From NCBI GenBank assembly GCA_964645795.1, contig CAZYCL010000008.1:8166-72165 (forward strand): a stretch of DNA of 64,000 bases, written 5' to 3'. The notes below the pieces were generated by a model that saw only the letters and a list, made by a program, of their open reading frames with translations, was not told where the DNA came from and did no database searches. Below, one piece after another: positions 18,001 to 30,120 of the stretch; the first letter of the stretch is position 1, and every line of letters starts with the position of its first letter. This DNA is from an uncultured Planctomycetales bacterium (lineage in GTDB: Bacteria; Omnitrophota; Gorgyraeia; Gygaellales; Profunditerraquicolaceae). The position numbers and the translations under genes are program-made.

Positions 18001-20646
18001 GCCGATTACTCCGTTAGTTGCGCCAATAAGAGGAGCGATAGCGTTCTTTCCGATATCAATACCCAATATAGGAGCTTTATCTTTCCAGCTGGAGATCAGG
18101 CCGTCTTTGAGAGCAGCGCTTCCGTAGAAGTTAACTTCGTAATTCTGGCCCTTATCATTGAAGCGGGCGTTAAGCGCCATGCCCTCGATATCCTTGCGGG
18201 TATAGTGCATGATCTTCTGGTTGTCTTCGAGCGCAATGGTCGCTCCGTTAATTCTAAGCGGATCTCTTATCCAGTCGTTTGCCTGCCCTATGGGCCTCAA
18301 AGCCTGGGTGTTGGTAAGCAAGGGGATGTGCGAACCTTCGTTATTAAACCAGAGTTTTTGTTCTTTGGTGGCGATAACCTCCAGAAGGTCGTTCCTGTTG
18401 CCAATAGTAATGTTGCCGTAGGTACCGATGCTCTTAGGATATACGGGGTCAGCAGCCGAGCCGGAACCGAGTATCTGATTGGTAACCACTGCCTTGCCGT
18501 TTGAACCGGCAAAGGCGTTCAGGCGGCCGGTATTGGTGTAATCAAACCCCGCCAGATCCAGTTTGCCGGTCTGTTTGCCGTCAAGCCAGGTAGTAATATC
18601 GCCTCTAGAAACGCTCTTCTCCATTGAACCCGCCCCGATAATGTTGCCTTGATGGTCGAACTCCTGGCGGGAGCCCTCTTTGATCCTCATATCAATAAGA
18701 TTGGTAGTTATGGATTTGCCTATGGGCAGAGCGTAAGAAACGGAATAATTGGTTTCAGGATTCTTGGTGACCACGCTCATCCCAAAAGGATGAAGGTTTA
18801 GGGACCTTCCGCTTGCCGGAGAAGACTCGATGCGGAAACCGCTAGCTCCGCTATTCTCAAACATCTTATTCCTGAACTCCATTCCGGAGACCAACGGTAT
18901 TGCCTGGCTGCCGTATCCAGAAGTAAATAGCGTGTCTCCGGGACGGGCGTGCAGGCCGGCGCGGGTGAAGTTTAAAGTAAAGTCACCCTGGGCATTGGCG
19001 GGATGTATTTCCATCACGCTTAAGCCTTGCGGCGCGGATTGAACGGGCTTTACGGAAAAGATATTGTTGTACGGCGTGGGGGCCGAGGAAGGCCGGTCAT
19101 CGAAGTTCGAGGCCACTTCAGGGGAACGCAAGGTGTTCATGTAGGTAGACATGTCCCACCTTAAGCTTCCCGGCTGCAGGTTCTGGAAAGATCTTTGGCT
19201 AAGGTTAGTGCTAAAGTTAAGATCGCCTATCTTGCTGCCGATCCAAACGGTGGTGCCGTCTTTGACTTTGCCTTTCCTGGCATCGAGGCCCGTATCAAAT
19301 AAGGCCTGCGCATAATTCTTATACCCGGTGGAGTTGATCCTGCTCCAGACATCTCCCTTGACATCAAAGTTAACGTAATTGTTGGAGGTAAGCCTGGTGT
19401 TGCCGTGCCAGGCGCCGCTCAACACTCCGTTATTATATGTGGTGCTGATATAGCCGTTCTTAAACCACTGGTTAATGCCGCCACTTACCATTGCCGGTGC
19501 GCCGTTATTGGCATATTGGGTATTGCGATAGGATGTCTTAAAACCGTAGACATCGGTGGTGACCGTATTCCTGCTTAAGCGGCCGGGTTCGGTGAAATTC
19601 ATGGTGAAGGTCACCGGTTTAAAGCTATTGTTATTAGAACGAGTAATGTTCTGGGTAAGATTAAGCTGGGCATTGGGATTTGAGGCCGAGTTATAACCCT
19701 GGCTGCTCTGGCCTACCGCGTTATTGTTGTACTTATAGCTGGAATCCTTGTTCTGCCTCTGGGTCCTGAATCTGTCCTGGCCAAACTGCCCCCAGTCAGC
19801 CGCGCCCATGACCTTCTGCGCTTCTGCCTGCGAAAGAAGCCGGGTATTTTCGTTGGCGGTCAAGATCAAGGCGTTTCCGGAGAACCTTTCGGAGAACTTT
19901 TCCAAAGGCAGGTATGATTCCGTATGCTCATCAACGAAATAAACTTTATCAACGGTAATTCTGGTAACTAAAATATAGTGGTCCCCGTTTAAGTGGGCGA
20001 TGAAAGGGGCCAATTCAGTTGTGCCGGTTGGCCAGTTGGCCAGTTGGCCAGTTAAATCTATATTTACGGGATAAAGCTTGGTGCCGAAGAATTCAGAGGC
20101 ACGGGAAAGGGCATAAAGGGAGTTCTTGACTACTGCGGGATCGCCTTCGGGCCTGATCACTCCGTTTAAGATGTCGGTAGTGAGGGCCAGGACCGCGATA
20201 TCCTGCTCAACTACTTCAATGCCCTGATAACGCAGGAAGTCATAAAGCGCCTTGGCGCCGCAGGGCCTGTTTTTCAACCAATTGTATATCTCTTCGATCC
20301 TGGACTTGGATAGGTTAAGCGGCTTTTCCAGTTCAATGGCGATCTCCGGTGAAAGACGGATGGAGGTAATCGGCTTGCCGGCAACTTCATTTAAAATATT
20401 ACGGACTGCAAAAGGAATATCAAACTGCGGATTGGTGTTTAATGGGGAGGCGGTATAAAGCTCTGCACCGGGCCTGTTCCAGAGCACTCGCCAATCATAC
20501 TCAACTGCCTGGGCAACCTGCTCAGGAACGAATACGCATACCACTAAAAAAGCCACCACTCTTATCCAGCGCTTAAAACCGGACTTGAACGGCGGCTGAA
20601 CTTCTGTCGCCTGCGCATCGCTTACGGTAATGGGGGCTACTTTCAT
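1..20646 (-). CDS. Giant secreted multidomain protein, over 6,882 aa, C-terminus truncated by the window edge. N-terminal signal anchor, internal ~240-aa Gly/Ala-rich repeat modules, trypsin-like S1 peptidase domain, C-terminal SLT/lysozyme-like region.
   Basis: Hand translation of the minus strand from ATG at 20646..20644 (MKVAPITVSDAQ..., followed by a hydrophobic segment WIRVVAFLVVCVFV) shows no stop through position 1. The frame is confirmed at three distant points: the start codon, GRPGDSGSPYLV at about 4445-4470 with TNTHV at about 4840, and G(R)MQ/EV motifs at about 250-450. Plus-strand ORFs in this span are all short shadow ORFs. The ORF track omits it, probably because it has no stop inside the window. 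Confidence 0.8.
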   Translation of the reverse strand, partial: MKVAPITVSDAQATEVQPPFKSGFKRWIRVVAFLVVCVFVPEQVAQAVEYDWRVLWNRPGAELYTASPLNTNPQFDIPFAVRNILNEVAGKPITSIRLSPEIAIELEKPLNLSKSRIEEIYNWLKNRPCGAKALYDFLRYQGIEVVEQDIAVLALTTDILNGVIRPEGDPAVVKNSLYALSRASEFFGTKLYPVNIDLTGQLANWPTGTTELAPFIAHLNGDHYILVTRITVDKVYFVDEHTESYLPLEKFSERFSGNALILTANENTRLLSQAEAQKVMGAADWGQFGQDRFRTQRQNKDSSYKYNNNAVGQSSQGYNSASNPNAQLNLTQNITRSNNNSFKPVTFTMNFTEPGRLSRNTVTTDVYGFKTSYRNTQYANNGAPAMVSGGINQWFKNGYISTTYNNGVLSGAWHGNTRLTSNNYVNFDVKGDVWSRINSTGYKNYAQALFDTGLDARKGKVKDGTTVWIGSKIGDLNFSTNLSQRSFQNLQPGSLRWDMSTYMNTLRSPEVASNFDDRPSSAPTPYNNIFSVKPVQSAPQGLSVMEIHPANAQGDFTLNFTRAGLHARPGDTLFTSGYGSQAIPLVSGMEFRNKMFENSGASGFRIESSPASGRSLNLHPFGMSVVTKNPETNYSVSYALPIGKSITTNLIDMRIKEGSRQEFDHQGNIIGAGSMEKSVSRGDITTWLDGKQTGKLDLAGFDYTNTGRLNAFAGSNGKAVVTNQILGSGSAADPVYPKSIGTYGNITIGNRNDLLEVIATKEQKLWFNNEGSHIPLLTNTQALRPIGQANDWIRDPLRINGATIALEDNQKIMHYTRKDIEGMALNARFNDKGQNYEVNFYGSAALKDGLISSWKDKAPILGIDIGKNAIAPLIGATNGVIGSQNNLLLPKSIADRQQWDLSKNKRQEFDFTIHEANLSALDKDYNYQGEPRQLLDAARRSLKLTLNPADITRGAAAVNLGIQAKQFIFPSQVASVAAANNDSDNAGANIAKQKVTSWSLKEVAPYIYEANSATGKEQRAAWLHVDTKSLRSNIDTTPMFESAKFNVAGDMNKFVRAVQLDNKGLVNGEIIAFAANDYNPVTGIGSNLSGRKLELNNAGIVRGTSAKSGWVNINSLGTGFIEVSGAKNTIQAANIALNKVNFWVRDVAGDMRFDNFSIGKASEFRNGQEGRELAIKTRLDNHKPVIDILSKHELLLKQLPKASFDQPSAQKEAPESTLPAMDITPTVKAGRTLANKQRVDFILNNLGSTNVGLSGNLTNVTFNATKNIDKLTLGVQDPLSRGARVIGIRPSGIDKVKFDSQQRMVTENVGEFYKGIDTATDSFAMVLTDVEKIKQNNDVKLARVIYAGILQNQKFVNGEKPTDQAIALIEAEVNKMNINQLTSKIEAKIKEGGGKLAVSTPEVIIARGVNFERTLIKAPGADKPGEYFYKDGGFSLSRIDFKDGTKRTDITPGISPADERGINSLYIDITGKAPAFGKQMGPMVSGVEQQPANSVEPANVSYRQTNFGVENNKVFGENQRISFAPGALFSARANAELDLSNTELTGMKNFVWLGLARQANDNGMTGYAGIMTHGKNSAFFNKQQQLAGIDENFLISSTWSNINALLDAKMLHRINNINDVPDELLEPLAADLKVTVGDKANLRSDIAKVIQAKDFNKIVTTAFKEGVNADGVSFSRMITGVKDAAAEYSYAHFSLDKLTFKDKYSISSSGLKAGIGSDAQPYIDLKGDKDGYERAFGAFSAASQNQAAEPPASGRDPVTSNFKFDKAGYGLANNQRLLFNNNSLFSPTGSLSLDTRNATFTGVDNVIASGWGFNPHPVVVDMSKARLQDYWSFGLERLFSEDLTKKLLAIDNDHNSKDKEKKKQEAIKAEFKAFDDRYRDVLDKNKALKGGKLIGVVPNSANDAAEFITLEIKVGKKTIKAAFFPFIEKPTFIPLTKGNKGILAAKAAENLGLDKNTDLKIGKIKGNGPLNRLFNVNGKTKRVTVETGGTRRTVREWVTYTSTDSLGNEEAKKVALLKRKHLMDHTGKDLGSKVSTRSFTGSVNNNSSSVSTYTEYLVAKRKEAVTELHTNNAVYKQGYYKITPANEVNQFTVIELMKKNPGYGSEYSMHSTEKLLVENMIYIKDGIAYSSDNAKELGRAYCKAKGISYFAVPNSDWNINDKNSSSLLYFNADGTAINPKDISQGAIYAAIGTDIHGIGTASKGVREMVTIKHSPSINHREALLLDCEVLHKLPDLGIKDPNNVLSGVMSVRPIGYTEAILVKDGREIGVIGPDAFNEILGADEGKKLYEDLQRKSIIGNEGRIGNLPQYSKLKLDKAYESHRDRIYAVLFQADNHFIKTGLNNEGEAGVILDPSTGAVQEVVRKKLVYKNSGEAAGHSYYITNSLSLPSGDYVRYERMNYRHGDKTNSFYCKGVNGDQRVSLEEQNAVINPELEMRAIGLVKQALFSRRNKQFFKALIMSDISIGDLGESRPAGYRSEFHNTDRIFKKITIDLQDNEGNVVNKSLNELMSLNRSDLRAQGFKPRKERLAQRNAIYANYKLNEALATGQFKDLGIVNIAHPVYMSVLISNHAKTIGDLYDRAKLNGLTPVLPLDKSFTVGALNTYATAGVIVVGTTILSGGLAGPEWAAVLAAGSVGAAGSIASTAVLKYGMTGDHITGGEMAVAGVTGFVASGAAAWAKSATLARLSTDLKALQAAGKAGASAGNLATAIDRSRQSLSWVRMSGIIRNTSNLGKLEGAGANIFKTVETLKKGTDIAKVGTMGMATRNLSTTGSLFWVNSSLAIDQFGSISSSGRAMNLGEGFKSLGTSYAWLLAPSVLFGASKNILSRVASSTMNPWAKYGGTTLAGASAGYLVDSYKTGNWTKFDSSKLLHMGGGALLFNGAVLTAAKGGRAAKAVKGAVDGATKWIAAEAPAALRYTSAAAGGAGIGYLADSVITGNWGFKEEGMIFDTPNWSKIAAMAGGAAVGFTGSRVAAKYGKGMGAGLYTGWAKGITPKDFTVLETRFYKIGKAARLTAEKGGMPLRGAASGYTASSFISGKWGLNNQEGNFDWDKLGMTLGGGLLGVGFGKDIAAAANPLNKAAKTSSYVKFAGAALMAPGLSAGLKNRLPEDSWLNEHKVLAMAIPAAAVLLGAGAIKYNKALLNFIKHPATLGAMGGAGAGYLADSLATGNWGFKEEGMIFDTPNWSKIVAMGSGAVIGATTVYAVNRNPVIKEGFRGGAKGLEKEVIAKEFATGALRRQIESQQKLFDISYAVGKNIKPVGAAIRSPLLGAGAGYLTESAITGNWKFKDEKGWDVAKIVAMTGGAAAFSAIDFIRWGKLIDGAKLAKGLNSAGSAVKKGFVATRLYTNKALIPVGDLVGWRNPAVFLGGSTAAAQADLRHPMVNELGAAAVIPGLLLNPGRGILATAGNIGNFLGIRNDVAKRVDMVKYQERLLFNDMLRENIGGIGSSVIAYAFYRADSLIQAASGSYSIRAIGNLKETALSFFDSVNKAKETLKELNYNEIPEDKWVEFGMIFGSMVGGARGLKQLAGQLRQAAIAESRTYLNLRSAAAEAKAVAPNVPLSVSVPQFLSRVHRDAKNLVYINTAFTIGMPLIMNYGPNGYGFSEFLDQVYNAAYQKDEIASGAVGAAFIWRGATGITKAVSHSRLGNWANAQLNKFDNASFGKQAAIAGGSLAGGSTLHWLGTSEKIGIQDKAAGVILSHIGLLAAGTGAVLLARSITKLPAYQRFLNRGRIGTEVKIAKDAGKFKESEFFTGTTGEQMKVTKEGVLIKNKGPNGADILIKNKERVQIKLANGEIKTKAVPFSRDWLFGTGEEAMSGRWQGLAHQIKYTTAWGTAGALAGYLRYTQDKKAGKEFAENGALPYLLMGAGIGAFGLKNLPKLSRTAAHWGVQGLGIAGTGALIYSGKKLTFDPLAGIFEESLDPAKKGKGGLNYWQRARTYLFTKHDVLEIDQYNPIGADGKYNYKVVGQANDWSYALFMGALARGLANVGKVARKSYRGHDLKSPKGFWYGLRKEGINSNIIRGGQQLGEFKQALKQPQTYTSAVLPLAGGIGAYYLGKSDKLKDTTFGKVLRYGGIALAGYGALQTLGVLGGNLSPAEWQKLGTKMGLGKAGSHILGAGKYLTYDFALRGTIGNLFTVIAPLYGVIEATSLLTHKFIVPSASTDFEKSLWRSTFGAFWVPGEDGNIQNYIDIVGVNGQAWKNANGLDQKFNLALKVINRAYSVGLFGYKTDEEGNSTGEARIKSLKDGLAWDRSKDVVGNARVWFDNFDNSNLRFSAILAVLQPMAEPILSNIKRANFGKHFQAIGKGMEETFSAKAILGTAPRLASTQGALSAGRVMDMAITGTIEETLSEQVIQMGLSVLPWTVVGNPQLAALISEVLQETLSPFGAGARNYMPTRREALRMVNSALSSKYTPADAKMLPLLNKAKEDLENLKTNTAEDVIGAVLPVLSHQVNNPSTGSTFDLAGYARQAINKRFGIDEKINIELVGLNKLVNKETNTLVTAQYSEGTLKMDVGKNFIFDFDKSGNLTFTPSVVAVYNAIHEKEHDIIKRVQQDNLGLIKNPQERAQYDNMLKVISGVLGISVPELNLEISEWDPNEMVVQYFSLLDLAEYVKTHPGHSYGNDFGTENMKDLIERTTNQDFDSFSDAVGALNAKSGWRDTVTENAREKKQVLHSTGNFLFDVVDFVQWTNGNRVKRMRPMVQGPDDEYDKRVAKVYQAIVAAGGNIDPDDYDIKVVRNGGTKDSLAFTSEKNIGTMLVNERALRGIPEDTRLMVYLHDGHHVLFELKENKQSGFSKNKLDELISLAKDNENLKHALNGMIDYFRHTYDNIVTDVVAGIDIKGLNDNDAVKVSAQELKDKRERIATSRHFDSQVPPVEGKVNPNQLVLSALDLLIAKAESGTVTVADIKAFAAFKDILAKSDHGVAIELFGHLNPFLFTESEKSAALFTLKNRQMEVLNFAAALKQYDTDGKVRKFLSKLNEEIGMPDKVSSPVKAAEASSSPLFAKLKKNRALAAEKDYLSKTLKMEEEYITEPLKELSLLLNKAGMGPEMRRPIITHTSYGRKDIGETIKMLDSATLSDMKSLADNLVIKAHISDYAAGSILSQIIDRGDMEDVTPAVNSLLDGLSRLKLAENYEDINRDIFDRILQQPGVSANNAAVAVGSLINKLSDLDVSASDVQLFLMDAVLADKDIESSARKLEEQLALVLPGQAQQDKLQSIKQAMESGRDELSRTIVKVSPVGKDHSPNAGATGYVVGQTQDLYFVMTNTHVAKDKVFALETMKGEKITDATVVMTLVRDKFSGIPFGPGFMREKMNAAKGDLALLAVKKSDLKGQTLVPVELAGPKTIESIQSNPATLVSARNDLNLVTGQPVYIGNRIILINPLGKGRPGDSGSPYLVKTDKGYVALATNSVGTPFTDNPAGAVVSPQVLEDMLKAVDNERSSYTLATKDSSLISGTKEFLTAKAKTISSPLKASKDADYSLAKRQDIFTQAFVTTLAAVTGQKIKVSSVKQQDISAPEVKSLSATDLGGGAGSGFGIGAGGSGRGKGIGAGGSGFGRVPTFKQPKITLDKAKVFKYNTKELPLNRLPEPSEVPLGDTRQPLGLPAVPVSAPTAPVSNAPVGNSGLGGVGSIVGSVFSSSFSPAMALSAAASPIMPMDIGGVLVLNVNNLKFSDPIADHTAGLAPPAGPLLANFIDFVAQNLAKLMGISAAIAAKQAGFDKVSEGSLKLSERTRGAESATEERAGANDPQPAVSKEVRLAADVKLLEAASPLRENFSTNEAISKNLVPVSSTSASDPTRGECISSPISENGLILKSRMARLLVILTKAQLNYRLEAPNGEILPEEETRQMFFDSAESVSNSIVNEAGDAKKLMLRRRVFEDKNEVEKTRVEAINGLEAWFDRAVNELGLDAEDLKQLEIDAIGEDNADNNKRVGAKIRLNKNDDALKLLVAEGKSTLGKLVATNEDLKKVLSLEALDANTKYLIVKILESQQKMEAELKEVKEEATVANEKATVANEKATVANEKANVAVKGVVKYLNTDNPVDCLIFAIYALVGEKSGEKIESAIRMRRAEGKKVSLKDAIGIAQDLLGVFALSEDALRNMPQRLLDRLILMKKADDRLYHAFNVIGRNGDKLIISEDNASALTIIGKEVLISELFKKNGEIIAIGLNTEARSFENAGARKVGKEEIEEISDEEVNDLQGDGNGGGSGAGIGAGADAGSGSGAGVGGSAAGDSDTEKEDDYAFGASPVIHYSYIEGAANTASISAAYVLSSTSTTGAAVAFNTYSTSVANKQDGISLANIDGAVELEKDMLRSGKAVLYNRALNYSNNYKPYRFEGNLTLNGNRNLIKDFNKVLTNYRFSVNSTLSTELASVDNETKDKESKNTEKKETAINNATDEISRNSVKNAAVLNIVHSIFNHSLARNSSSAEFGFKSMPHAAPYSHAPPVEASDVINLPVNLAANANQSFAVNAGNNFPGLDNIGLKINLVYTIKATDPKATYHYSLAPPMFTSIDKAASPINASEARRVTELTLITSASKENKVPAALKAGLSATLNTNLLNVNGDINKQALSAIVAKSLSQIRNNSNISSPVKYDLAKKIVFLTSSLFLGKQEAWKFANEWAAERDAEREAARLNKAAKLSKASKPASRAKIAAKVVLWSILTLGALKTFQLADGFKPHASKEAAYAALNDQAMRSYIERTLALYLGKDEAAKFFEASEYSNGTVRNTKGILTALNRVEENRENIIKYSNKYGVDPEFVAAVMFYEVLDLTPFERVLDVFGSVVKPTTAGRMQIGYDAYLTIYPKYDGSRVRLAYIMVNNDAKNIDAGAKYIAYLMKLGQNKYGLNGNDLLLKVAASYTATPFTSGILKNMPKPPFD
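2551..2631 (-). repeat. 21-bp perfect tandem repeat (3 full copies plus 1 partial) inside the giant CDS, encoding (ATVANEK)n
   Basis: agctttttcatttgctactgt is repeated head-to-tail. It is in frame (a multiple of 3) and translates to EKATVANEKATVANEKATVANEKANVA. Confidence 0.85.
20017..20042 (-). repeat. 8-bp tandem repeat (ttggccag x3) about 200 codons into the giant CDS
   Basis: ggttggccagttggccagttggccagtt is read directly. The unit length is not a multiple of 3, so gain or loss of one unit would frameshift the giant gene. Confidence 0.8.
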
Positions 20647-21187
20647 TTTATTATTAATAATAAATAATATAAAATGAAGCTTCTCCTTTATCACTAACGC
20701 CAGATTTTTCACTGCGTCTGCGATTTTTCTCATCACCGATTTTTAAAGCTTTAAAAAACTGCTTTTTAATGCCCTAAAAATAACGCCTGGAACTCTTTCC
20801 CAGTGCATCAAAATTATAACATAATATATATATGAGTCAAGAAAAAAAACCCGAAAAATTTAAGCGCTTACTTTTTCAAATAGAGGTATAAAATTAACTA
20901 AATCATAAGTGTTACAACAACTAGCTAGAATGAGTAAAAAGCCAAACTTTCTTATAAATTCCCATAAAGGGGACAAAGGAGAGGTTAAAAGAGTGCCTCA
21001 ATAAACACTTATGCTGGCTTCTTTCTTGGAATTGATTTAAGCAATATTCTGAATGAATAATCAATCCTTTCAAAATAATCATCCAGATGTTTAGATTGGA
21101 CATTGACTACTAACATAGTGCAGTTTGGACATAAATTTTTATTTAATAGTAAATTGGACATTGTTTTGGATCATGCAAGCAACCAAT
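20647..21187 (-). promoter_or_regulatory. 540-bp AT-rich upstream/leader region of the giant gene with three phased TTGGACAT octamers (ATGTCCAA on the gene strand)
   Basis: TTGGACAT at 21096-21103, 21125-21132 and 21154-21161, with 29-bp spacing. There is no long ORF, and no canonical SD near the ATG at 20646. Confidence 0.5.
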
Positions 21188-22219
21188 TTAATTATCGTTA
21201 CGGATAGACACACTTGTCTGAATAAGCGAATCTAGGGTTATAGGTTGAGGGTCAGGTCGATTATCTAAGTATTGGCGTTCATATACCGGAAAGCTGGCCT
21301 TTTTTTCGATTAGGCGGTTTATAGGCTGAAAAGCGGCCTTATGGAGTTTGCTATTATAAGAAGCGTCTAGTAAACCACCTTGATAATCTCCTGGAGCGTA
21401 ATCATTAACATCTATCACCTCAAGATAGCTATCTTTGCTCGGCGCATCGTAATTCCAGGCACTCCAATAGCCATTCGGACCTGATTCCGACCCCTCAAAA
21501 TGCTCAAGCTTGCCGCGCAAAACGACCGTGCTCGTTCCATAGCCATTCCTGGCCCTGTCTCCAGTCAGTTTCGGTTGGTCGATATTCAAATTCGAAATCG
21601 ATTCTGCCCTATCTCCTTCTATATATTCTATTACTCTCTCAGCATCCTTGGCCTGATAGGTAGTCTTACCTTTTTTAAAGTAGCGCTTAAACTGGCTCAA
21701 GGACTTATCAGACACCTCATAAGAAGAGGCTTGCCATTTTCCGTACTTTTGGGGCAAGCCTAAGCTCATGCGGAAGGCATCGTACTGGGATTGACGCTGC
21801 GAATCTTCCTTATCCATATCCCAACCGTATTTGGCGTATTCATTATCTTCCTTGGTGTTAGTTAGAACCGCCTTGAGTATACTGCTCCAGGGCCGGTGTT
21901 TAGTGCCCAGGCTAATGCCCTGAGGATAGATATTCTCGGTGATCCTCTCGCTTAATCCAAAGGGAAGCTGGTTCTCGATCAATTCATCATTAATGCCGTA
22001 TTCGTCAAATTGCCCGTCGTTGGGCATATACGGCATCTTGGTAGAGTATTTCTTTCCCTCGAATTTAAAGCTCTTTTTGCCTTCCCTCTTAGCCTTGTCA
22101 CGCGCCTCTATCCATTTGGGCTCTTTTAATCGAAGGTTCAAGCCAGAATTGTTGAGCTCATACATCTTCGGGCTATCTTTGATCATCTCCTGCGAAGGAG
22201 GCTCGTAAGAGACGAACAT
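21188..22219 (-). CDS. Hypothetical 343-aa protein, probably the C-terminal extension of the upstream 2,294-aa protein via the A10 frameshift site
   Basis: ORF track. Its reading frame is open upstream all the way into the A10 tract at 22419-22428. GGAG abuts the ATG with zero spacing, so there is no credible RBS. No recognizable domain. Confidence 0.6.
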   Translation of the reverse strand: MFVSYEPPSQEMIKDSPKMYELNNSGLNLRLKEPKWIEARDKAKREGKKSFKFEGKKYSTKMPYMPNDGQFDEYGINDELIENQLPFGLSERITENIYPQGISLGTKHRPWSSILKAVLTNTKEDNEYAKYGWDMDKEDSQRQSQYDAFRMSLGLPQKYGKWQASSYEVSDKSLSQFKRYFKKGKTTYQAKDAERVIEYIEGDRAESISNLNIDQPKLTGDRARNGYGTSTVVLRGKLEHFEGSESGPNGYWSAWNYDAPSKDSYLEVIDVNDYAPGDYQGGLLDASYNSKLHKAAFQPINRLIEKKASFPVYERQYLDNRPDPQPITLDSLIQTSVSIRNDN

Positions 22220-22410
22220 CTCCGCCGCATCCGATCTGTCGCTTATCGAACCGCCGGACCCGCCGCGGCCTCCGCCATCATCAAAGGCAAGCAGGCTGTA
22301 ATCGTCTACGGCATGCAGCTTTTGCAGCGATTGAACGACTATATCGCTTTTTTCATTGACGGGCTGGCTATTTTTCTTTCCTACGGACGGGGCATTGGTA
22401 GTTTCGTTGT

Positions 22411-25400
22411 TTACTTTATTTTTTTTTTACCGGTGGGCACAGCTGTTACAGGGGCGATGATTTTGTTCAAATCGGGCGTAGGATTCGGCAATTGATTGAT
22501 CGTTCTAAGCGGTATAGGCCTTGTAATAGCGAGGTCATCCTCCAGAGTCGACAGCCAATTGGGATTATTGAGAATCTTGGCGGGGTTCCTCTCAATGAAG
22601 GTAAAAACTCCGCCTGATTCATTCGATTCATCGCTTGTTAAAAGCTTATCCAGCTTAACCAGGTTGCTAATTACTTGTTCGTAATTATCTTCGGTGATGC
22701 TGCCGTTCCTGCAGGCTCCTACCAGGATATTTTGCGCACCTTCGGTCAAAATGTAGGTTTTACTCATTACCTTTCGCTCCAGGTCGGGGTTATTAATCGG
22801 TGTAAAGCCGGATATCTGATTTTGACTGGCCGAGACTTGCGGGGTATTTGCGGGCTTGCCAAGCTGGCGCAGGTCATTTAACAGAGAGGCTTGCGTATAT
22901 GTAACTACCGGCACGATATCGATATCCTCGTCATCGTCGACATCCTGAGGCATGCTTAATAGGTCGTCTTTGAAAGTAGACAGCCAGTTCGGATTACCCG
23001 CTATTTTTGCGGAATTAGTAACAAGGAAGTAATCAACTCCTCCCATCTCCTTGTTTACCTCTCTAAGCGTCTTAATAACATCTTGATAGTTAGACTCAGT
23101 TATACTCCCGTTCCTACAGGCAGAGATCAAGGTTTCCTGAGCCTCTTCCCTAAAAGTTTGCGTAGAGTACCTGACCTTTTTCTCTAGTTCGGTATTATTT
23201 ATCGGAGTAAACGCCGATTTATCCGCAACGACTTGCTCTAATTTAGCCAATTGCGTATTTTGAGATCTGTTTTCTTCGATTGCCGCGAGGTTATCAATCG
23301 AAGTGGTTGGTGAGGGAATATTCAAATTGGCATCTTGGGGATCGTTTTTAACCGGCTTAGCCAGGGGTAAAGCAGCGGTTGGCAGATTTTCATCCGGGAA
23401 TTCCTTAACCGGATTGATAATTAAAACCGGATTACTATTGATATCCGCGTCGGTTGTCTTAGGGTTATTGACCGGCACTGTATTGTCTGGCTCATTCATC
23501 CAGTTTAATCGGTTTCCAGGGTCTCTAAGCGGGCCGTGCATAACAGGATCGAAGTTCTCGGGCGCCTCCTCCTGCTTAATATCATTGTTTTTCACGATAT
23601 CTTGAGCCTGCTTCTGCAGGATTAACTCCATAGTAGCTTCCCTTGCGGATTGCGGACTCGAACTTAATGAATTGTTTATTGAATATATAGTATTGTTTAC
23701 TTCAATCAACTTCTTATTGTCTACCGGTTCTACATTGTTGGCAATCAAATCATTCTTTATAGGCTGCTTAACGGGATCAATCAACTGCCCTATATGTCCC
23801 CTAGCATAAGTATTGAGGTCAGACGGATTGATCCCGGAGGTAACAACCTTTTTGGAGTTGAACTCCGTCTTTTTAAAGATCGGATCGGCTCCGATGAATG
23901 TCCTGTCCACGCTTGAGCCATCTTCGCCGAGCTCCTCTGTGAAGGTAGTCCTGAAGGCACCGTAATGATCGGAGCTTTCCGGGCCGCCTGAAACAAAGGT
24001 CTTGCCGGATATATAATGCAGCTGCATGGATTGTAAGGCATTGCCGATAACAAAAGCATCCTGGTCATCGGGATTGCCTGAAGGAGACAGCGCGTCCGCT
24101 GCTTTTTGATCCTGGTCTTTTACAAACTCCCTTATACCCTGCCTGATCTCATCCTCGACATAATTATAGGAAGATAATCTCTTAAAACCCTGCATCTTAC
24201 CGTCGTTGACTTGCTCCTGGATATCTATGCTCCATTTAGGAAGAGGGATCCAGTCGGAGAAGGCCTGCGTGCCCGGGGCAGTAACACCCTTAAATCTCTG
24301 ATACTCAGATACCCTTACCCCGCTATAGGAAGAGCCGGGTGAAACAACATTCTGCGCATCCACGCGGTGCGACGGCCCGATATAAGGACTGTAGCCCTTT
24401 GAGCCTTCATAAAGGGTAAGGCTGTATGAGGTAGAAGGAGCGCCCCCTGCCAGCGTACCGGCAGCCCGATTAGACGGCCCCCTAAGAGAAAGGTCGGGTT
24501 CGGGCAGCTTGAACCCGGTTACGGATATCGGCTCAAGGCGCGGCAGAGGAACGTATTCTCCGTCGAAAACACGCAGGTGTTCTCCGGATTGTAACGGGAT
24601 ATGGTCCACATTGGGCTTGACATTGCCTCTGATATAAGGCTTAAGTTGCGATGCGTCGCCCTCAAACCGCTCTCCTGTTCCTTCATTCTTATATACAGCT
24701 TGGCCTTCTTCGGTATTAGAGCGCACATAAGACCGGCCTTTTGCGTCCTTATAATAAAGACGGTCGCCGTAGCGGCTAAGCAGCTGCGGGTTCAGGTCTA
24801 CCAGTGAGGCGCCCGTAGATTCATCGGTAATAAGCCATTGACGGCCACCATCTCTGGTCTCGGAAGGAAGCCAGGTCTTGGAAAAAAACCAGGCGGTCTG
24901 CTTCAATTCGCCGTCTTTGGATATGCCTTCTTCTACCTGGGCATATAAATCTCCGTTCGGACCCTCCACCAACAATCCGCGTTGCGCTTCAGGAAGTTTA
25001 TTCTTAAACTCATCGAGTTTCTTATCAGCCGCCTCTGCGGATTCTGTATATGATCGAAGTCCGGAAGTATTTATCGCAGATACTATGTCTTTATTGGTTT
25101 GTACCTCTATCCCGGCATTATCCGGCTTAGAAGCAGGCGGAGTATAACTGGGGCGGGCATCGGAATAATCCCTGGTTACCGATAAGGCATGGCCAAAAGG
25201 ACCGTAATAATGCGTTGAGACCCTGTCCAGCTGCACGCCCTGCCAGTCATTGGAATCCAGGCTCAACCTCTCGCCAGAGTAGTAATAGGTGTTGAGCATC
25301 CTGCCGAAGCGGTCAACCGTGGTATACTCAGCAAGCATGGGAGTCGAGCTGTGGTAGAAATCCACGCCCTTCTTAAGGCTGTCAACGACCCCCAGCAGAC

Positions 25401-28400
25401 GGTCAACGGAAGGAGCTTCTCCGTCCGGGCCTTTAGCGCCCTCATAAATCCACTTGAAGTTCTCTTTTATCTCTTCGACAAGCCTTAGCTTATCTTCTTG
25501 CGGCAAATCAGTCAGCTTCGTATTGGCTGTGATTGAGTTCTTGATGGTGGAGTTACTCAAAATATTGGTATCAGCTAAATCGAAATCATTCGGTCCGCCG
25601 ACAGAACCCCTGTAGAGGTTTCTAAAAACCACCTGGCCTTGTGAGACTCCTGCGCGCGAGAGATAATAACTATTATCGATATAATCCGTGACCGCGAACT
25701 TAAGCCGATCTCTTATGTTCCTGGCCGTCTCAAGATCACCGTTTGTTTCCGCCTCTATGGCGCGCTGCTCCAGCGCGTTCATCACATCCGGCATATTGCT
25801 TATTTCCGGGCTTATTACCTGGCTGTTTGTAGTGTAATCATAAATGGAATTATTCATAAAGACGGCGTAATTATCGAAGTTATCCGGCATAAACGCCCAA
25901 TTATTTACTGAAGCGGATAAGGATTCAGCAAGGTTCATGTCGGCACGGTAACTTAAATTAGAGGCTATGCGCATATTGTCGGCGTCAATGACAGTCCCGC
26001 CCTGGGAGATGACGCTTATATGTTGAGTGAACTTATCGCGCACTCCCCACTGGTTCATAAAGGCATTGGGCCCGGTGCCGCTGGCGCGGTAATTGACCGG
26101 CAGCAGGACGCTGTCAACAATAGCTTCGTAGAACTGCTGGCTGGCATCTCCCACCACGCCTCCAACGAAGGTCGTATCTGAACCGTATGCGCTTTTAAGA
26201 TCCTGGTTGCCCTGCTTATTCTGCCTAAAGATAGCATCGACTGTGCCGGCGATAAGGCTTGAGGCTCCCAAGTGCACCAGCTCATTTACGGCGGTAGGGG
26301 TAATCTCTTTTTCTTTGCAGTAATAACCCCAGCCTATTTCGCTAGCGGCAAAGAAGACGTTTTCCACGCTCTTGGCCCCGAGGTTACGCCAGTAACCAAG
26401 CGAACCCCTGGTCTGGAAAGGATTGTTGTATACTTTCTTGGTCTTATAGACTTTTTCTTCGCTTATTTCGCCCGTTACAGGATCTATTACGAATACAGTT
26501 AATTCCTTTCCATGTTTTTTCACAGGCACAAATTCGGTCTTTCCGGTATCTTTATTGAATCTCGTCTTATAAACCTCTGTGCCCTTATCACCCATAATCA
26601 CCCTGCCCTGGAACCAATCCCAGTTGGTAAAGGCTTCGGAGGTAATATTTGCACCGACGTTGGCAACGGCCATCTTGGCCTTATTCATGAACATCTTCTT
26701 ATAGTCAGTATTGCCGTAATAAGTTTCATAATTCATCACTTCCAACAACGCTACTCTTGTGGCGGTAGCAATAATCGGAGTAAGCCCCATGGTACGCATT
26801 GCTTCAAATCCTGAACGTAAACCAAGGCGGTTCTTCAGGGTGTTAATATCCCTGCCGTCCAGGGTGTACATCAGGCCGCCGGTATGCGCGAAGACGTTTT
26901 GGTATACCTGGTTGCTAATCGCTCCTTCATAGACTTTTAGGCCGTTAATAACCTGATCATTAACATCGTTAGGCGCAAGCTGGTATATTGTTCCGTCAGC
27001 CGCTTTTATGCTGTATGGTTTATCCGGATTGCTGGATATCTGTCCAAGTAAGCTAGAATTGACCAGTTCGTCGATTGTTAAAGTGACCAGCTCTGCCTTA
27101 TCTTGGCCAGCCCGGGTCAATTTAAGCGTTATAGTCTGATTGGGATCGCCTAAGGCGAGCACTCCGTACTGACCGATGGACTTAACCCCTTCCTGCAACT
27201 GCCCAGCAGCAACAGCCATGCCTGTTTTGTAAGCCTTGGCTGACTCTAGCATTTCTGCGGTTATGTCGCTTCCCTTAAGCAAGACCTTCTGACCAGTAGT
27301 CGTAAGGGTTATCTCTACAACATCATTAGGCTTTAAGTTTTGGAGCTTGTCCAGGTTAGCGGCAACGGTAGCTATGGTGACCTTTTCCCGGTAAGCGGCA
27401 TCGGGGTTGACAACTTGCAAGGCGTCCAACTTGCCCTGCACATCCAAATACATATATTGTTTTACCTGTTCAACGACTCCGGAAGCGATAAGCTCCTGAA
27501 CTGAGACTTTAACTTTGCTTCCATCTGAGCCTATTAATTCGTAGGCCCCATTGGGATCTATCTTGCCTAAACGAATGTCTTCTTCGACTTTCGAGTACAC
27601 TTCCCCGATGGTAGTCTTTACCCCGCCCAGGGTAACTTCAGTATCAGCGCTTAAATCGTTGGAGATATTTGCCACGTTCACTATCTGGGCCAGTTGCGCG
27701 GCCTGTTCGACATATGACTGATATTGCTTTACCACGCTTGATTTAAGCAGCTCTTCGCCGGTTATCTCGCTAATTGTCCCGTTAGAGGTCGAAATCTTAT
27801 ACACTTCTTCTTTTTTTATCTGGCCTTTTAAAATGGCTTCCTTGAGGCTTGCGTCATTTAATACTTCGTTAAGAGTAATGCTTCCTTTTACCACGCCGTT
27901 GCCTATTTGCTGGGCAGCCGCAACAGCGATTATCCCATTTAGATAGGTTTTGATACCTATTATTGCCTCGTTGTTAACATCGATATCGTTTGCCGACACA
28001 TAGATTATCTTACCGTTACGATTGACTTCATACACCGCATCCTTGGTTAGAGCGCCGTCATCCAACAGGTCAGCTACAAAGGCTTCGCAGGCTGCCAGCT
28101 CTCCGCCGCTGACACCCTTCTTCTTGCCTTTCTTATCTATGCCGTAGGCGACGTCGCTCTGCCCATCCGAAAGATACGCGCCCTGGTTGTCGAGCTTACC
28201 GCCTTCAGCGCGAGCTATCATCGGGGCAAGGGTATTCTGGACAAAGGCTGCGGCGTAATTGCCAACCATGTCGCCGACTATCTGGGCGACAGTCTCGTCA
28301 ACCGGGCCGATGATCTTCTTGCCCTTTTTAGTATATATGCCTTCCTCGAGGTTCTGCTTTACGTACTCGGAGACAAACAGACGCACAGTCCCGGATATGA

Positions 28401-29295
28401 CGTCCAGGGCAAAATACGACAGGGCGTGGATCAGGCCATTGACCGGGCTAGTAAGCATCTCCTGGCCGAACCTGATATAGGGGTTGGCACCTACGGCAGA
28501 AAGCCTGAAAATCCCCCCTACTGTTTCGTCCGAGTACTGGCTGAAGTTCCTGATAATCTGCTTTACCTTCTGGATAGGGGTATCCCATATGGGCTTGAGG
28601 ATGTTCTTGTACACCCAAACAGCGGCCTTCTTAATCGCGTTACATACGGGCTTAATCACATTATTAAAGAACCACACGAGCGCATTCCATACCGCCTTAA
28701 GCGCATCCATAACCGCCTTTTTAATGGCCTGAATAATCTGGCCTATAATGGTATTGGCAACAACGCTGGTGGTGGTCTGGACAACTACCTGCGTACCGAC
28801 ACTAGTCGCAGTTTGAGTTCCGGCTTGAGTTAAAACTTGAGTCCCTGTATCTGCAGCTGTCCCTGCAAGGGCTTCGGTCCCTGCCTGCGTTCCTACTTCA
28901 GTGCCGACATCAGCGCCTCCCTCAATAAGGCCGCTGACTATACCGCCTACGAGGCTTGCAGCGCAACCTGCTACCATTGACCAAAACTGGCCTTTCGTGA
29001 TCTTGACCTTGCCGACTTCGATCATTGTTTCGCCATAGGTGTCGTACATGGCGAAATAAAGTATGGTGCCGACACCATCACTAACTATGGAGCTAACGCA
29101 GCCCCATACAGGGTTTATGAGACAGCCCACAGCAATACCTACTCCGCTGATCGCCCCTGCTCCCATAGACTCAAGCGTAGTGGTAGTGCCATAATTACCC
29201 GACCTGGCAAATGCAGGGGGCGTAAGGGAAGAAAAAAAGAAGGCAAACGCGGTGATAAGGCTGATTACTTTTATAAATTTACTTTTTCTTTTCAT
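22411..29295 (-). CDS. Giant secreted protein, 2,294 aa. Signal peptide, Gly/Thr/Gln-rich and amphipathic-helix N-terminal region, tandem-duplicated ~105-aa C-terminal module.
   Basis: ORF track. N-terminus is MKRKSKFIKVISLITAFAFFFSSLTPPAFA. The C-terminus contains two homologous modules (FTPINNxxLExKV...ACRNGSITExNYxxVIxxL...NPNWLSTxxDDL). No catalytic motif recognized. Confidence 0.8.
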   Translation of the reverse strand: MKRKSKFIKVISLITAFAFFFSSLTPPAFARSGNYGTTTTLESMGAGAISGVGIAVGCLINPVWGCVSSIVSDGVGTILYFAMYDTYGETMIEVGKVKITKGQFWSMVAGCAASLVGGIVSGLIEGGADVGTEVGTQAGTEALAGTAADTGTQVLTQAGTQTATSVGTQVVVQTTTSVVANTIIGQIIQAIKKAVMDALKAVWNALVWFFNNVIKPVCNAIKKAAVWVYKNILKPIWDTPIQKVKQIIRNFSQYSDETVGGIFRLSAVGANPYIRFGQEMLTSPVNGLIHALSYFALDVISGTVRLFVSEYVKQNLEEGIYTKKGKKIIGPVDETVAQIVGDMVGNYAAAFVQNTLAPMIARAEGGKLDNQGAYLSDGQSDVAYGIDKKGKKKGVSGGELAACEAFVADLLDDGALTKDAVYEVNRNGKIIYVSANDIDVNNEAIIGIKTYLNGIIAVAAAQQIGNGVVKGSITLNEVLNDASLKEAILKGQIKKEEVYKISTSNGTISEITGEELLKSSVVKQYQSYVEQAAQLAQIVNVANISNDLSADTEVTLGGVKTTIGEVYSKVEEDIRLGKIDPNGAYELIGSDGSKVKVSVQELIASGVVEQVKQYMYLDVQGKLDALQVVNPDAAYREKVTIATVAANLDKLQNLKPNDVVEITLTTTGQKVLLKGSDITAEMLESAKAYKTGMAVAAGQLQEGVKSIGQYGVLALGDPNQTITLKLTRAGQDKAELVTLTIDELVNSSLLGQISSNPDKPYSIKAADGTIYQLAPNDVNDQVINGLKVYEGAISNQVYQNVFAHTGGLMYTLDGRDINTLKNRLGLRSGFEAMRTMGLTPIIATATRVALLEVMNYETYYGNTDYKKMFMNKAKMAVANVGANITSEAFTNWDWFQGRVIMGDKGTEVYKTRFNKDTGKTEFVPVKKHGKELTVFVIDPVTGEISEEKVYKTKKVYNNPFQTRGSLGYWRNLGAKSVENVFFAASEIGWGYYCKEKEITPTAVNELVHLGASSLIAGTVDAIFRQNKQGNQDLKSAYGSDTTFVGGVVGDASQQFYEAIVDSVLLPVNYRASGTGPNAFMNQWGVRDKFTQHISVISQGGTVIDADNMRIASNLSYRADMNLAESLSASVNNWAFMPDNFDNYAVFMNNSIYDYTTNSQVISPEISNMPDVMNALEQRAIEAETNGDLETARNIRDRLKFAVTDYIDNSYYLSRAGVSQGQVVFRNLYRGSVGGPNDFDLADTNILSNSTIKNSITANTKLTDLPQEDKLRLVEEIKENFKWIYEGAKGPDGEAPSVDRLLGVVDSLKKGVDFYHSSTPMLAEYTTVDRFGRMLNTYYYSGERLSLDSNDWQGVQLDRVSTHYYGPFGHALSVTRDYSDARPSYTPPASKPDNAGIEVQTNKDIVSAINTSGLRSYTESAEAADKKLDEFKNKLPEAQRGLLVEGPNGDLYAQVEEGISKDGELKQTAWFFSKTWLPSETRDGGRQWLITDESTGASLVDLNPQLLSRYGDRLYYKDAKGRSYVRSNTEEGQAVYKNEGTGERFEGDASQLKPYIRGNVKPNVDHIPLQSGEHLRVFDGEYVPLPRLEPISVTGFKLPEPDLSLRGPSNRAAGTLAGGAPSTSYSLTLYEGSKGYSPYIGPSHRVDAQNVVSPGSSYSGVRVSEYQRFKGVTAPGTQAFSDWIPLPKWSIDIQEQVNDGKMQGFKRLSSYNYVEDEIRQGIREFVKDQDQKAADALSPSGNPDDQDAFVIGNALQSMQLHYISGKTFVSGGPESSDHYGAFRTTFTEELGEDGSSVDRTFIGADPIFKKTEFNSKKVVTSGINPSDLNTYARGHIGQLIDPVKQPIKNDLIANNVEPVDNKKLIEVNNTIYSINNSLSSSPQSAREATMELILQKQAQDIVKNNDIKQEEAPENFDPVMHGPLRDPGNRLNWMNEPDNTVPVNNPKTTDADINSNPVLIINPVKEFPDENLPTAALPLAKPVKNDPQDANLNIPSPTTSIDNLAAIEENRSQNTQLAKLEQVVADKSAFTPINNTELEKKVRYSTQTFREEAQETLISACRNGSITESNYQDVIKTLREVNKEMGGVDYFLVTNSAKIAGNPNWLSTFKDDLLSMPQDVDDDEDIDIVPVVTYTQASLLNDLRQLGKPANTPQVSASQNQISGFTPINNPDLERKVMSKTYILTEGAQNILVGACRNGSITEDNYEQVISNLVKLDKLLTSDESNESGGVFTFIERNPAKILNNPNWLSTLEDDLAITRPIPLRTINQLPNPTPDLNKIIAPVTAVPTGKKKIK
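22419..22428 (-). other. A10 homopolymer (slippery tract) at the 3' end of the 2,294-aa CDS. Candidate -1 frameshift, transcriptional slippage or phase-variation site.
   Basis: Minus strand reads CCG GTA AAA AAA AAA ATA AAG TAA. The -1 frame from inside the A run continues with no stop for 68 codons into the ATG of the 343-aa ORF. Confidence 0.6.
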
Positions 29296-29695: not shown

Positions 29696-29730
29696 TTAGG
29701 TATCGGTTGCGACTGTCGGTTTCGTATATT
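29676..29730. repeat. Left inverted-repeat flank of the four-helix-bundle gene (CGGTNNCGG repeat family)
   Basis: cggtgtcggcttcggttaggtatcggttgcgactgtcggtttcg. Its reverse-complement-like partner lies at 30121-30180. Confidence 0.6.
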
Positions 29731-30118: not shown

Positions 30119-30120
30119 GC

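What the first reader, a model, noticed from the sequence alone, without database searches (positions are those of the whole stretch)
22411..22430. A10 slippery tract: the 2,294-aa and 343-aa ORFs are probably one protein joined by -1 frameshifting or transcriptional slippage
The 2,294-aa CDS ends ...GGT AAA AAA AAA ATA AAG TAA. The -1 frame entered anywhere in the A10 run is stop-free for 68 codons and runs straight into the ATG of the 343-aa ORF. That downstream ORF has no usable RBS, since GGAG abuts its ATG. A-runs of 9 or more are efficient sites for transcriptional realignment and for A_AAA_AAA-type ribosomal -1 slippage. Alternatively this is a phase-variable on/off switch for a C-terminal domain, or a homopolymer sequencing error.
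Basis: seen in the sequence. Interest (0 to 1): 0.65.

Follow-up and report, generated by a model that had tools for sequence, protein, structure and literature searches.

The report
One gene split at an A10 run
In an uncultured Omnitrophota bacterium, a 2,294-aa secretion-locus protein and the 343-aa ORF after it are two halves of one gene, split by a one-base frame change at a run of ten A's, so the last ~410 residues can only be made if RNA polymerase or the ribosome slips there.

Summary
The 2,294-aa ORF ends GGT AAA AAA AAA ATA AAG TAA. The -1 frame opens inside the A10 run (22419-22428) and stays open for 69 codons, with no start codon, up to ATG 22219.

Three results support one gene. 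First, the 191-nt "spacer" has normal coding codon usage in the -1 frame. Second, it carries a junction motif (LLAFDD..GSISD..M) that three related Omnitrophota loci have inside one continuous large ORF, and ATG 22219 aligns with an internal Met of that motif. Third, six independent run-level assemblies all read A10, so a sequencing error is unlikely.

The motif marks where variable C-terminal cassettes begin in this family. The only other carrier of this cassette is also interrupted, by an in-frame TAA, and its sister strain has deleted the cassette.

Most likely reading: normal decoding gives the short protein, and slippage (A11 mRNA, or a -1 ribosomal shift) gives a 2,702-aa isoform. Whether this is selected or a recent inactivating mutation is unresolved. 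No -1 frameshift stimulator, no conservation of the run and no length polymorphism were found. This is a new example of a known kind, closest to Citrobacter tssM1 (A11).

The parts
22411..29295 (-). Large ORF in the zero frame, 2,294 aa. It has an N-terminal signal peptide and two further hydrophobic segments. It is the last gene of the Tad/T2SS-like locus that precedes the giant gene. This is the product of standard decoding.
   Evidence: Homologues of 1,769-2,517 aa occupy the same position in other Omnitrophota loci.
22419..22428 (-). A10 homopolymer (GGT AAA AAA AAA A), the proposed slippage site. It is the only A/T run of 9 or more in the window.
   Evidence: It is identical in six independent run-level assemblies.
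22411..22413 (-). Zero-frame TAA stop, two codons after the run (ATA AAG TAA).
22427..22429 (-). The -1-frame TAA (T of GGT plus A1A2). This is the last stop before the -1 frame opens, so the two frames overlap only across the run.
22220..22426 (-). The 'spacer': 69 codons in the -1 frame with no stop and no ATG/GTG/TTG. Its codon usage is that of coding sequence.
   Evidence: Codon log-odds is 26.3, against 23.6 +/- 8.0 for true in-frame windows, -31 and -36 off-frame, and -12 +/- 14 for intergenic sequence, of which 2.4% reach this score. The 36 codons between the run and the motif alone score 14.9, against 12.3 +/- 5.0 for coding windows.
22217..22309 (-). Conserved junction motif VDDYSLLAFDDGGGRGGSGGSISDRSDAAEM. 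It ends in the Met that gene callers take as the start of the 343-aa ORF.
   Evidence: A profile built only from L001, L007 and L086 and searched against the six-frame window has its top hit here (E=0.017; next best 3.4). In the relatives the motif lies inside the continuous large ORF.
21188..22219 (-). The 343-aa ORF, which is the C-terminal module (cassette). It is reachable only in the -1 frame and has no family, fold or PDB match.
   Evidence: It is 38-42% identical to the L001 module. Residues 3-23 align to the C-terminal end of L001's upstream ORF (score 60; 0 of 20,000 shuffles reach it).
21188..29295 (-). The inferred complete gene. With an A11 (or A8) message it reads as one 2,702-aa (or 2,701-aa) protein.
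   Evidence: There is no promoter-like or terminator-like site on the minus strand between the two ORFs.
22534..23211 (-). Two tandem repeats of about 90 aa (FTPINN..ACRNGSITE.NY..NPNWLST) just upstream of the run. They are a lineage-specific insertion between the conserved body and the junction motif.

Best explanation
The 2,294-aa and 343-aa ORFs are one gene, encoding a large exported protein at the end of the Omnitrophota Tad/T2SS-like locus. In this family a conserved body is followed by a junction motif (..LLAF(N/D)D.G..G.S.SDAV.PMA) and then by a variable C-terminal cassette.

In this organism a run of ten A's lies 45 codons upstream of that motif. It puts the junction and the cassette in the -1 frame. 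Faithful decoding therefore ends two codons after the run and gives the 2,294-aa protein without the cassette.

The long form (2,702 aa, junction ...PTGKKKNKVNNETT...) is made only in two ways. RNA polymerase can realign on the T10 template and add one A, giving an A11 message. A9 and A12 messages hit TAA at once, while A8 also fuses. Less likely, a ribosome slips -1 on A_AAA_AAA.

Shown here: the anatomy, the coding nature of the spacer, its homology to the inside of the large ORF in relatives, and the reproducibility of A10.

Inferred from established behaviour of bacterial RNA polymerases on A/T runs of 9 or more: a fraction of messages is frame-corrected.

Not shown: that the two-isoform output is selected for, rather than merely tolerated.
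For: - **Frames.** They switch within the run. The -1 frame is open for 69 codons without any start codon.
- **Coding signal.** The spacer has coding-type codon usage in the -1 frame only.
- **Unbiased profile test.** A junction profile built from relatives alone finds the spacer as the best hit in the six-frame window, E=0.017. ATG 22219 aligns with the internal Met of 'PMA'.
- **Contiguous in relatives.** L007 (2,311 aa) and L086 (1,880 aa) have the motif and a C-terminal module in frame with the body. In L001 the motif and the homologue of the first ~23 residues of the 343-aa ORF lie in the upstream ORF.
- **Long-term constraint on the module.** It is 38-42% identical to L001's over about 365-390 aa, at least as conserved as the body at 30-34%.
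- **A10 is reproducible.** It is present in Logan assemblies of ERR14964774, ERR4519286, ERR4524288, ERR4519284, ERR4524290 and ERR4519281.
- **Co-transcription is plausible.** No terminator or promoter lies between the ORFs on the coding strand.
- **Precedent.** C. rodentium tssM1 is interrupted after an A11 run, and messages with 10-15 A's restore the frame (PMC4256274). Thermus dnaX (A9) and IS elements behave similarly (PMC1088944).
Against: - The run is not conserved. L001, the only other carrier of this module, has no A-run and lacks the whole segment around it.
- All assemblies of this organism are 100% identical, so nothing shows how long the run has persisted.
- There is no stimulatory RNA structure 3' of the run (z = -0.19), no SD-like element 5' of it, and no rare codon after it: ATA is common.
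- The cassette looks dispensable in relatives. L001 has an in-frame TAA inside conserved coding sequence. L002, its ~88%-identical sister, has deleted the cassette.
- No transcript or protein data exist.
Confidence: 0.55

Rival explanations
1. Recent inactivating frameshift. The ancestral gene was contiguous (A11 or A8). A replication slip to A10 cut off the C-terminal cassette, which is now a young pseudogene remnant or silent cassette. Any slippage product is incidental noise.
For: - Homopolymers are mutational hot spots (PMC1088944).
- The same cassette is disrupted by a TAA in L001 and deleted in L002.
- The run is not conserved.
- No frameshift stimulators were found.
- C-terminal cassettes in this family turn over quickly. 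L007 and L086 are ~90% identical but swap cassettes exactly after 'PMA'.
Against: - There is not a single further stop or frameshift in 412 codons, and codon usage in the spacer is fully coding-like.
- Both known carriers of this cassette show exactly one disruption each, a state that should be short-lived under neutral decay.
- On an A10 run, some frame-corrected mRNA is expected regardless.
Confidence: 0.3
2. Phase-variable contingency switch. The length of the A-run changes at the DNA level and turns the C-terminal cassette on (A11 or A8) or off (A10 or A9) in subpopulations.
For: - A long homopolymer sits in the coding sequence of an exported protein that probably acts outside the cytoplasm.
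- The family has variable C-termini.
Against: - The window and six run-level assemblies (seven sequences) all read A10. No fused variant exists in the 15-billion-protein collection.
- The consensus sequences are otherwise clonal.
- Minority variants could not be examined.
Confidence: 0.07
3. Two independent genes. The 343-aa (or 325-aa, from Met19) protein is translated from its own start, and the open spacer is a coincidence or a relic.
For: - Gene callers annotate it this way.
- Most genes here need no SD.
- The ATG coincides with the cassette boundary.
Against: - The spacer is coding-like and homologous to the inside of the large ORF in relatives.
- The ATG is a conserved internal Met.
- The sequence upstream of ATG 22219 is GC-rich, unlike the AT-rich leaders of the SD-less genes here.
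- In L001 the gene boundary lies elsewhere, and 29 conserved codons lie between its TAA and the first possible start.
- No promoter is present.
Confidence: 0.06
4. Homopolymer sequencing or assembly error: the true length is A11.
For: Homopolymers are error-prone in some sequencing platforms.
Against: Six independent per-run assemblies made with a different assembler, plus the source contig, all give A10.
Confidence: 0.02

Closest known systems
Citrobacter rodentium tssM1 (and Yersinia pseudotuberculosis tssM): transcriptional frameshifting at a poly-A run (Gueguen et al. 2014, PMC4256274)
   Same: A structural gene of a secretion machine is interrupted just after an A11 run. The C-terminal domain is in another frame with no start of its own. 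No ribosomal frameshift signals are present. Two length variants are expected.
   Different: For tssM1, slippage (10-15 A's in the mRNA) and the need for both isoforms were shown experimentally. Here nothing is measured. The protein family is unrelated and of unknown function. The run here is A10 and needs +1 A.
Thermus thermophilus dnaX (A9) and IS-element orfA-orfB fusions at A-runs (Baranov et al. 2005, PMC1088944)
   Same: RNA-polymerase realignment on an A-run of 9 or more yields products with different C-termini from one gene.
   Different: In those cases the run is conserved among homologues. Here it is confined to one clonal population.
Poly(A)-tract frameshifts rescued by polymerase infidelity in Buchnera and Blochmannia (Tamas et al. 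2008, cited from my own knowledge; Blochmannia example PMC3017870, listed, not read)
   Same: An apparently broken gene with an intact downstream frame is kept partly functional by slippage at an ~A10 tract.
   Different: Those are AT-rich, reduced genomes with many such tracts. This genome is 50% GC and has a single such run in 64 kb.
E. coli dnaX-type -1 programmed ribosomal frameshifting (A_AAA_AAG plus an upstream SD and a downstream hairpin)
   Same: An A_AAA_AAA heptamer is present, and a zero-frame stop is close by.
   Different: There is no SD-like element upstream and no significant structure downstream.
Polymorphic C-terminal domains of CdiA/Rhs/MafB-type proteins and their 'orphan' CT modules (from my own knowledge)
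   Same: A conserved junction motif is followed by non-homologous C-terminal cassettes in close relatives. Cassette loss occurs. A cassette lacking its own initiation signals sits downstream of the main reading frame.
   Different: There is no immunity-like ORF after the cassette and no toxin domain is recognisable. The main ORF has no second junction motif of its own. The frame switch is exactly at the homopolymer, not at a recombination scar.

Membership tests
Transcriptional-slippage recoding at an A/T homopolymer | An A or T run of about 9 or more at the point where the reading frames change | tested here: met
   A10 at 22419-22428. The frames overlap only across the run.
Transcriptional-slippage recoding at an A/T homopolymer | The downstream frame is coding right up to the run and has no initiation codon of its own | tested here: met
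   There is no ATG/GTG/TTG in 69 codons. Codon-usage scores are 26.3 for the whole spacer and 14.9 for the 36 codons next to the run, both typical of coding sequence. The junction profile hits here with E=0.017.
Transcriptional-slippage recoding at an A/T homopolymer | Heterogeneous run length in the mRNA from a homogeneous DNA template | not testable with these tools
   No transcript data are available. The DNA consensus is uniformly A10 in the window and six assemblies.
Transcriptional-slippage recoding at an A/T homopolymer | The trans-frame fusion protein is detected | not testable with these tools
   No proteomics data. The diagnostic peptides are listed under next steps.
Transcriptional-slippage recoding at an A/T homopolymer | The slippery run and the split-frame arrangement are conserved among orthologues (for a 'programmed' event) | tested here: not met
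   L001 has no run and lacks the surrounding segment. L007 and L086 are contiguous. All assemblies of this organism are 100% identical, so there is no evolutionary depth.
-1 programmed ribosomal frameshifting (dnaX / IS3 type) | X_XXY_YYZ slippery heptamer | tested here: met
   A_AAA_AAA lies within the run.
-1 programmed ribosomal frameshifting (dnaX / IS3 type) | A stimulator: a downstream hairpin or pseudoknot, and/or an upstream SD-like sequence | tested here: not met
   The fold of the 141 nt starting 12 nt upstream of the run gives -19.2 kcal/mol, z = -0.19 against shuffles. There is no GGAGG-like element in the 20 nt upstream. The next codon, ATA, is common.
Phase-variable (contingency) locus | Repeat-length polymorphism among isolates or samples | tested here: not met
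   The window and six assemblies (seven sequences) all read A10. No fused protein variant is on record. Minority alleles were not examined.
Pseudogene | Multiple disruptions and/or loss of coding signature downstream of the lesion | tested here: not met
   There is a single lesion. The 412 codons downstream are open and have coding-type usage. A very young pseudogene cannot be excluded.
Omnitrophota secretion locus preceding giant ('Archaeovorin'-type) genes (West-Roberts et al. 2023) | RcpC/CpaB, secretin, GspE/TadA-like ATPase, GspF/TadB-C, and a Rotamase_2 PPIase upstream of a giant ORF with an N-terminal C39 domain | tested here: met
   Pfam hits. The giant ORF is at least 6,914 codons. 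The description in the paper matches. Relatives are Omnitrophota MAGs.
Polymorphic-toxin-like architecture (variable C-terminal cassette after a conserved junction) | Close relatives lose homology exactly at a conserved motif and regain it after the stop codon | tested here: met
   L007 and L086 are ~90% identical up to 'PMA' (L007 4655 / L086 7808). Their tails of 760 aa and 513 aa are unrelated, and homology resumes at L007 7008 / L086 9401.
Polymorphic-toxin-like architecture (variable C-terminal cassette after a conserved junction) | A recognisable toxin domain and a cognate immunity gene immediately downstream | tested here: not met
   No Pfam, NCBIfam, PHROG or PDB match for any cassette. 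There is no ORF of 120 codons or more between the cassette and the giant gene in the window, L001, L007 or L086.

The most novel reading that the evidence does not exclude
The large Tad-locus protein of this Omnitrophota clade is a polymorphic-effector-like protein whose C-terminal cassettes are exchanged at a conserved junction motif. This particular cassette is deliberately kept behind a translational barrier in both lineages that carry it: A10 slippage here and an in-frame TAA in L001. Only a small, tunable fraction of molecules would then carry it, for example because it is toxic or must be sub-stoichiometric. The glycine-rich junction might also be a processing site for the C39 peptidase domain at the N-terminus of the neighbouring giant protein.
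Probability: 0.12. Interest if true: 0.7.

Novelty: new member of a known kind. Interest (0 to 1): 0.42.

Why it matters
**Annotation.** The 343-aa "hypothetical protein" is not a gene of its own. It is the out-of-frame C-terminal cassette of the 2,294-aa protein, and its annotated start codon is an internal residue.

**Biology.** If the slippage is real, this would be the first recoding case I know of in Omnitrophota, an uncultured and probably predatory phylum. It sits in the conserved secretion locus next to the giant genes, whose function is an open question.

**By-product.** This locus protein has a conserved junction motif followed by swappable C-terminal cassettes. That gives a handle for asking which part of the machine contacts prey or substrate.

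**Limits.** The phenomenon itself, poly-A slippage joining two frames, is well known. The rival reading of a freshly broken gene is not excluded.

Tried and rejected
- **Word-indexed protein searches.** The fused C-terminus found nothing, not even itself. The L001 region found only P0003.
- **Exhaustive HMMER search.** It found only the two self proteins, one module homologue (P0003) and one body homologue (P0004).
- **The search for related loci with the module alignment.** No loci in metagenomes or genomes. The neighbouring giant gene's N-terminus had to be used as the anchor instead.
- **Family and structure searches.** Pfam, PHROGs, NCBIfam and PDB gave nothing useful for the body or the module. 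The only PHROG hits were weak, to the hydrophobic N-terminal region.
- **Structure prediction.** AlphaFold2 on the module with a two-sequence alignment gave pLDDT 30, so no fold search was attempted.
- **L086 frameshift.** An apparent frameshift in the L086 homologue is an N-run scaffold gap, not biology.
- **Other overlapping ORFs.** Those after large genes in L101 and L121 are ordinary downstream genes with their own starts.
- **Frameshift stimulators.** A downstream RNA structure and a 'hungry' ATA codon were both rejected.
- **Homology just upstream of the run.** The segment just upstream of the run showed no significant homology to L001 (P=0.49).
- **Spacer versus single relatives.** Pairwise, the spacer is only weakly similar to L001 or L007 (P about 0.017-0.018). 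The profile test and the codon-usage tests carry the argument.
- **Run statistics.** The A10 run is not significant by synonymous shuffling (P about 0.2).
- **Paralogues.** No paralogue of the module exists elsewhere in the window or in the giant protein.
Full report
**1. The observation.**

Both ORFs are on the minus strand. The large ORF (22411..29295, 2,294 aa) ends ACC GGT AAA AAA AAA ATA AAG TAA. The A10 run is at 22419..22428.

The -1 frame has a TAA made of the T of GGT and the first two A's (22429..22427). After that it is open for 412 codons down to 21191. The first ATG/GTG/TTG in that frame is ATG 22219, the start of the annotated 343-aa ORF. So 69 codons have neither a stop nor a start. 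Inserting one A gives a single 2,702-codon ORF with the junction PTGKKKNKVNNETT. The description is therefore correct.

Statistically, the run on its own is unremarkable: 20% of synonymous shuffles of the 58.6 kb of coding sequence contain an A>=10 run. But it is the only A/T run of 9 or more in 64 kb, and it lies exactly where the frames switch.

**2. Context.**

The window comes from a Candidatus Omnitrophota genome; the relatives of the neighbouring gene are Omnitrophota MAGs.

Upstream on the same strand lies a Tad/T2SS-like locus:
- RcpC/CpaB
- a secretin
- a TadZ-TadA-like ATPase
- two T2SSF proteins
- a TadE/G-like protein
- a Rotamase_2 PPIase

Downstream there is a ~450-bp AT-rich gap with a near-consensus promoter. 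After it, a minus-strand ORF of at least 6,914 codons runs off the window. The ORF listing does not show this ORF for that reason. It has an N-terminal C39 peptidase domain.

This is the arrangement described for Omnitrophota giant genes by West-Roberts et al. (bioRxiv 10.1101/2023.11.21.568195).

The 2,294-aa protein has a signal peptide and two further hydrophobic segments, and no known domains. Homologues of 1,769-2,517 aa occupy the same position in other loci. They are conserved up to about residue 1,800 and divergent after that.

**3. Is the spacer coding?**

I trained a codon log-odds score on the other genes of the window. The 69-codon spacer scores 26.3 in the -1 frame. For comparison:
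- true in-frame windows score 23.6 +/- 8.0
- the two off-frames of real genes score -31 and -36
- intergenic windows score -12 +/- 14, and 2.4% of them reach the spacer's score

The spacer's own other two frames score -27 and -50. The 36 codons between the run and the junction motif alone score 14.9, against 12.3 +/- 5.0 for coding windows; 2% of intergenic windows reach this. Coding character therefore extends right up to the run.

**4. Relatives.**

Homologues are very rare. An exhaustive HMMER search found only one module homologue (P0003) and one body homologue (P0004).

*L001.* This is the contig of P0003 and is syntenic: end of the large gene, then the module, then the start of the giant gene.
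- One frame is open for 635 codons, has a TAA, and continues for 318 codons.
- The homologue of residues 3-23 of the window's 343-aa ORF lies before that TAA, in frame with clear large-protein homology (score 60; 0 of 20,000 shuffles).
- The 29 codons between the TAA and the first possible start are also conserved (score 66; 0 of 20,000).

So the gene boundary is not conserved, and L001 too has a single interruption inside conserved coding sequence.

*L002.* It is ~88% identical to L001 in nucleotides. It has a 4-nt deletion and has lost the whole ~1.2-kb cassette.

*L007 and L086.* Using the giant gene's N-terminus as an anchor gave 140 further loci. In two of them, L007 and L086, the large ORF is continuous and contains the motif ..DEDLLAFNDVGDNGNGSISDAV.PMA... 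L001 has ..DENLMAFNDGEDNGSRSDAVNPMA.. there. The window has VDDYSLLAFDDGGGRGGSGGSISDRSDAAEM, but in the -1-frame spacer.

*Profile test.* A profile built only from L001, L007 and L086, searched against every six-frame segment of the window, has the spacer as its top hit (E=0.017; next best 3.4). Among ~1.5 Mb of related loci it hits nothing else.

*ATG 22219.* This ATG aligns with the Met of 'PMA'. It is an internal residue of the family, not an ancestral start.

**5. A by-product.**

L007 and L086 are ~90% identical up to exactly 'PMA'. After that their tails of 760 and 513 aa are unrelated, and homology resumes just after the stop codon. The motif therefore marks the junction to exchangeable C-terminal cassettes, and the 343-aa ORF is one such cassette.

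This resembles polymorphic CdiA/Rhs-type proteins (from my own knowledge). However, no immunity-like ORF follows and no toxin domain is recognisable.

**6. Error or polymorphism?**

Logan assemblies of six different runs are 100% identical to the window over 1.3-11.2 kb, and all read A10. No fused variant is on record.

A sequencing error is therefore unlikely. Phase variation finds no support at the consensus level. The population is clonal, so nothing can be said about how long the run has persisted.

**7. Mechanism.**

No terminator or promoter separates the ORFs on the coding strand. No stimulators of ribosomal frameshifting were found:
- the 3' region does not fold better than shuffles (z = -0.19)
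- no SD-like sequence lies 5' of the run
- the following codon, ATA, is common

That pattern is the one reported for C. rodentium tssM1, where an A11 run causes RNA-polymerase slippage and two length variants (PMC4256274). Runs of 9 or more are the usual threshold for efficient slippage in bacteria (PMC1088944).

By inference, part of the messages here will be A11 (or A8) and encode the 2,702-aa form. A9 and A12 messages terminate immediately at TAA.

**8. Weighing the readings.**

That the two ORFs are one coding unit is well supported; I put it at about 0.85. Whether the split is functional is open.

For function:
- the downstream frame is intact and coding-like
- the module is as conserved as the body
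- both carriers of this cassette have exactly one barrier, each at a different place

For a recent lesion:
- the run is not conserved
- the cassette is nonsense-interrupted in L001 and deleted in L002
- cassettes turn over quickly

Independent translation of the 343-aa ORF is unlikely for the reasons given in sections 3 and 4.

**9. Verdict.**

This is a correct and useful observation. The split at a homopolymer is real and reproducible, and it turns two 'genes' into one. It is a new example of a known recoding or frameshift-rescue situation in an unusual organism and locus. Transcript or peptide evidence is still needed.

Noticed in passing
window 1..20733 (-): A giant ORF of at least 6,914 codons runs off the left end of the window. 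The ORF listing does not show it for that reason. It has an N-terminal Peptidase_C39 domain with a conserved Cys (RPCGAKAL) and His (GDHYILV). It matches the 'Archaeovorin'-type giant genes of Omnitrophota.
   Followed up: partly
window 21095..21160 (-); also 41072 (+) and the intergenic regions of L001 and L002: Three copies of (A)TGTCCAA(T/A) at 29-nt spacing lie between the stop of the 343-aa ORF and the near-consensus promoter of the giant gene (20840..20813). The window has 8 copies against 2.9 expected. The same motif is present in the corresponding intergenic regions of L001 and L002. It may be a regulator binding site.
   Followed up: partly
L007 4586-4655, L086 7739-7808, L001 1765-1830; window 22217-22309 (-): A conserved junction motif (LLAFND.GDNG..S.SDAV.PMA) is followed by non-homologous C-terminal cassettes in relatives that are ~90% identical. 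This indicates cassette exchange in the Tad-locus large protein. No immunity-like ORF follows. The Gly-rich motif could be a processing site, which is speculation.
   Followed up: partly
L001 1906-1908: An in-frame TAA lies inside conserved coding sequence of the only other carrier of this module, with conserved codons on both sides and no nearby start. It could be a nonsense mutation, a readthrough site or an error; this is unresolved.
   Followed up: partly
L002 ~6195-6374 vs L001 1620-2905: The sister strain has a 4-nt deletion that creates a stop, and has lost the whole ~1.2-kb cassette.
   Followed up: yes
window 22534..23211 (-): Two tandem repeats of about 90 aa (FTPINN...ACRNGSITE.NY...NPNWLST) lie at the C-terminal end of the 2,294-aa ORF. 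They are absent from L001, L002 and L007.
   Followed up: partly
window, all gene starts: Only about 6 of 30 genes have a Shine-Dalgarno sequence at a usable spacing. Many have AT-rich leaders instead. TAA is the main stop codon (19 of 30).
   Followed up: yes
window 29696..30160 (-): A 23S rRNA-intervening-sequence protein (four-helix-bundle, Avd-like) gene sits between the Tad genes and the large ORF. It is also called in the L003 copy of this same locus.
   Followed up: no
L145 and L146 (Logan ERR4524288, ERR4519284): Two short contigs begin only 59 and 24 nt upstream of the A-run. This may be low coverage, or a de Bruijn branch caused by length heterogeneity at the run.
   Followed up: no
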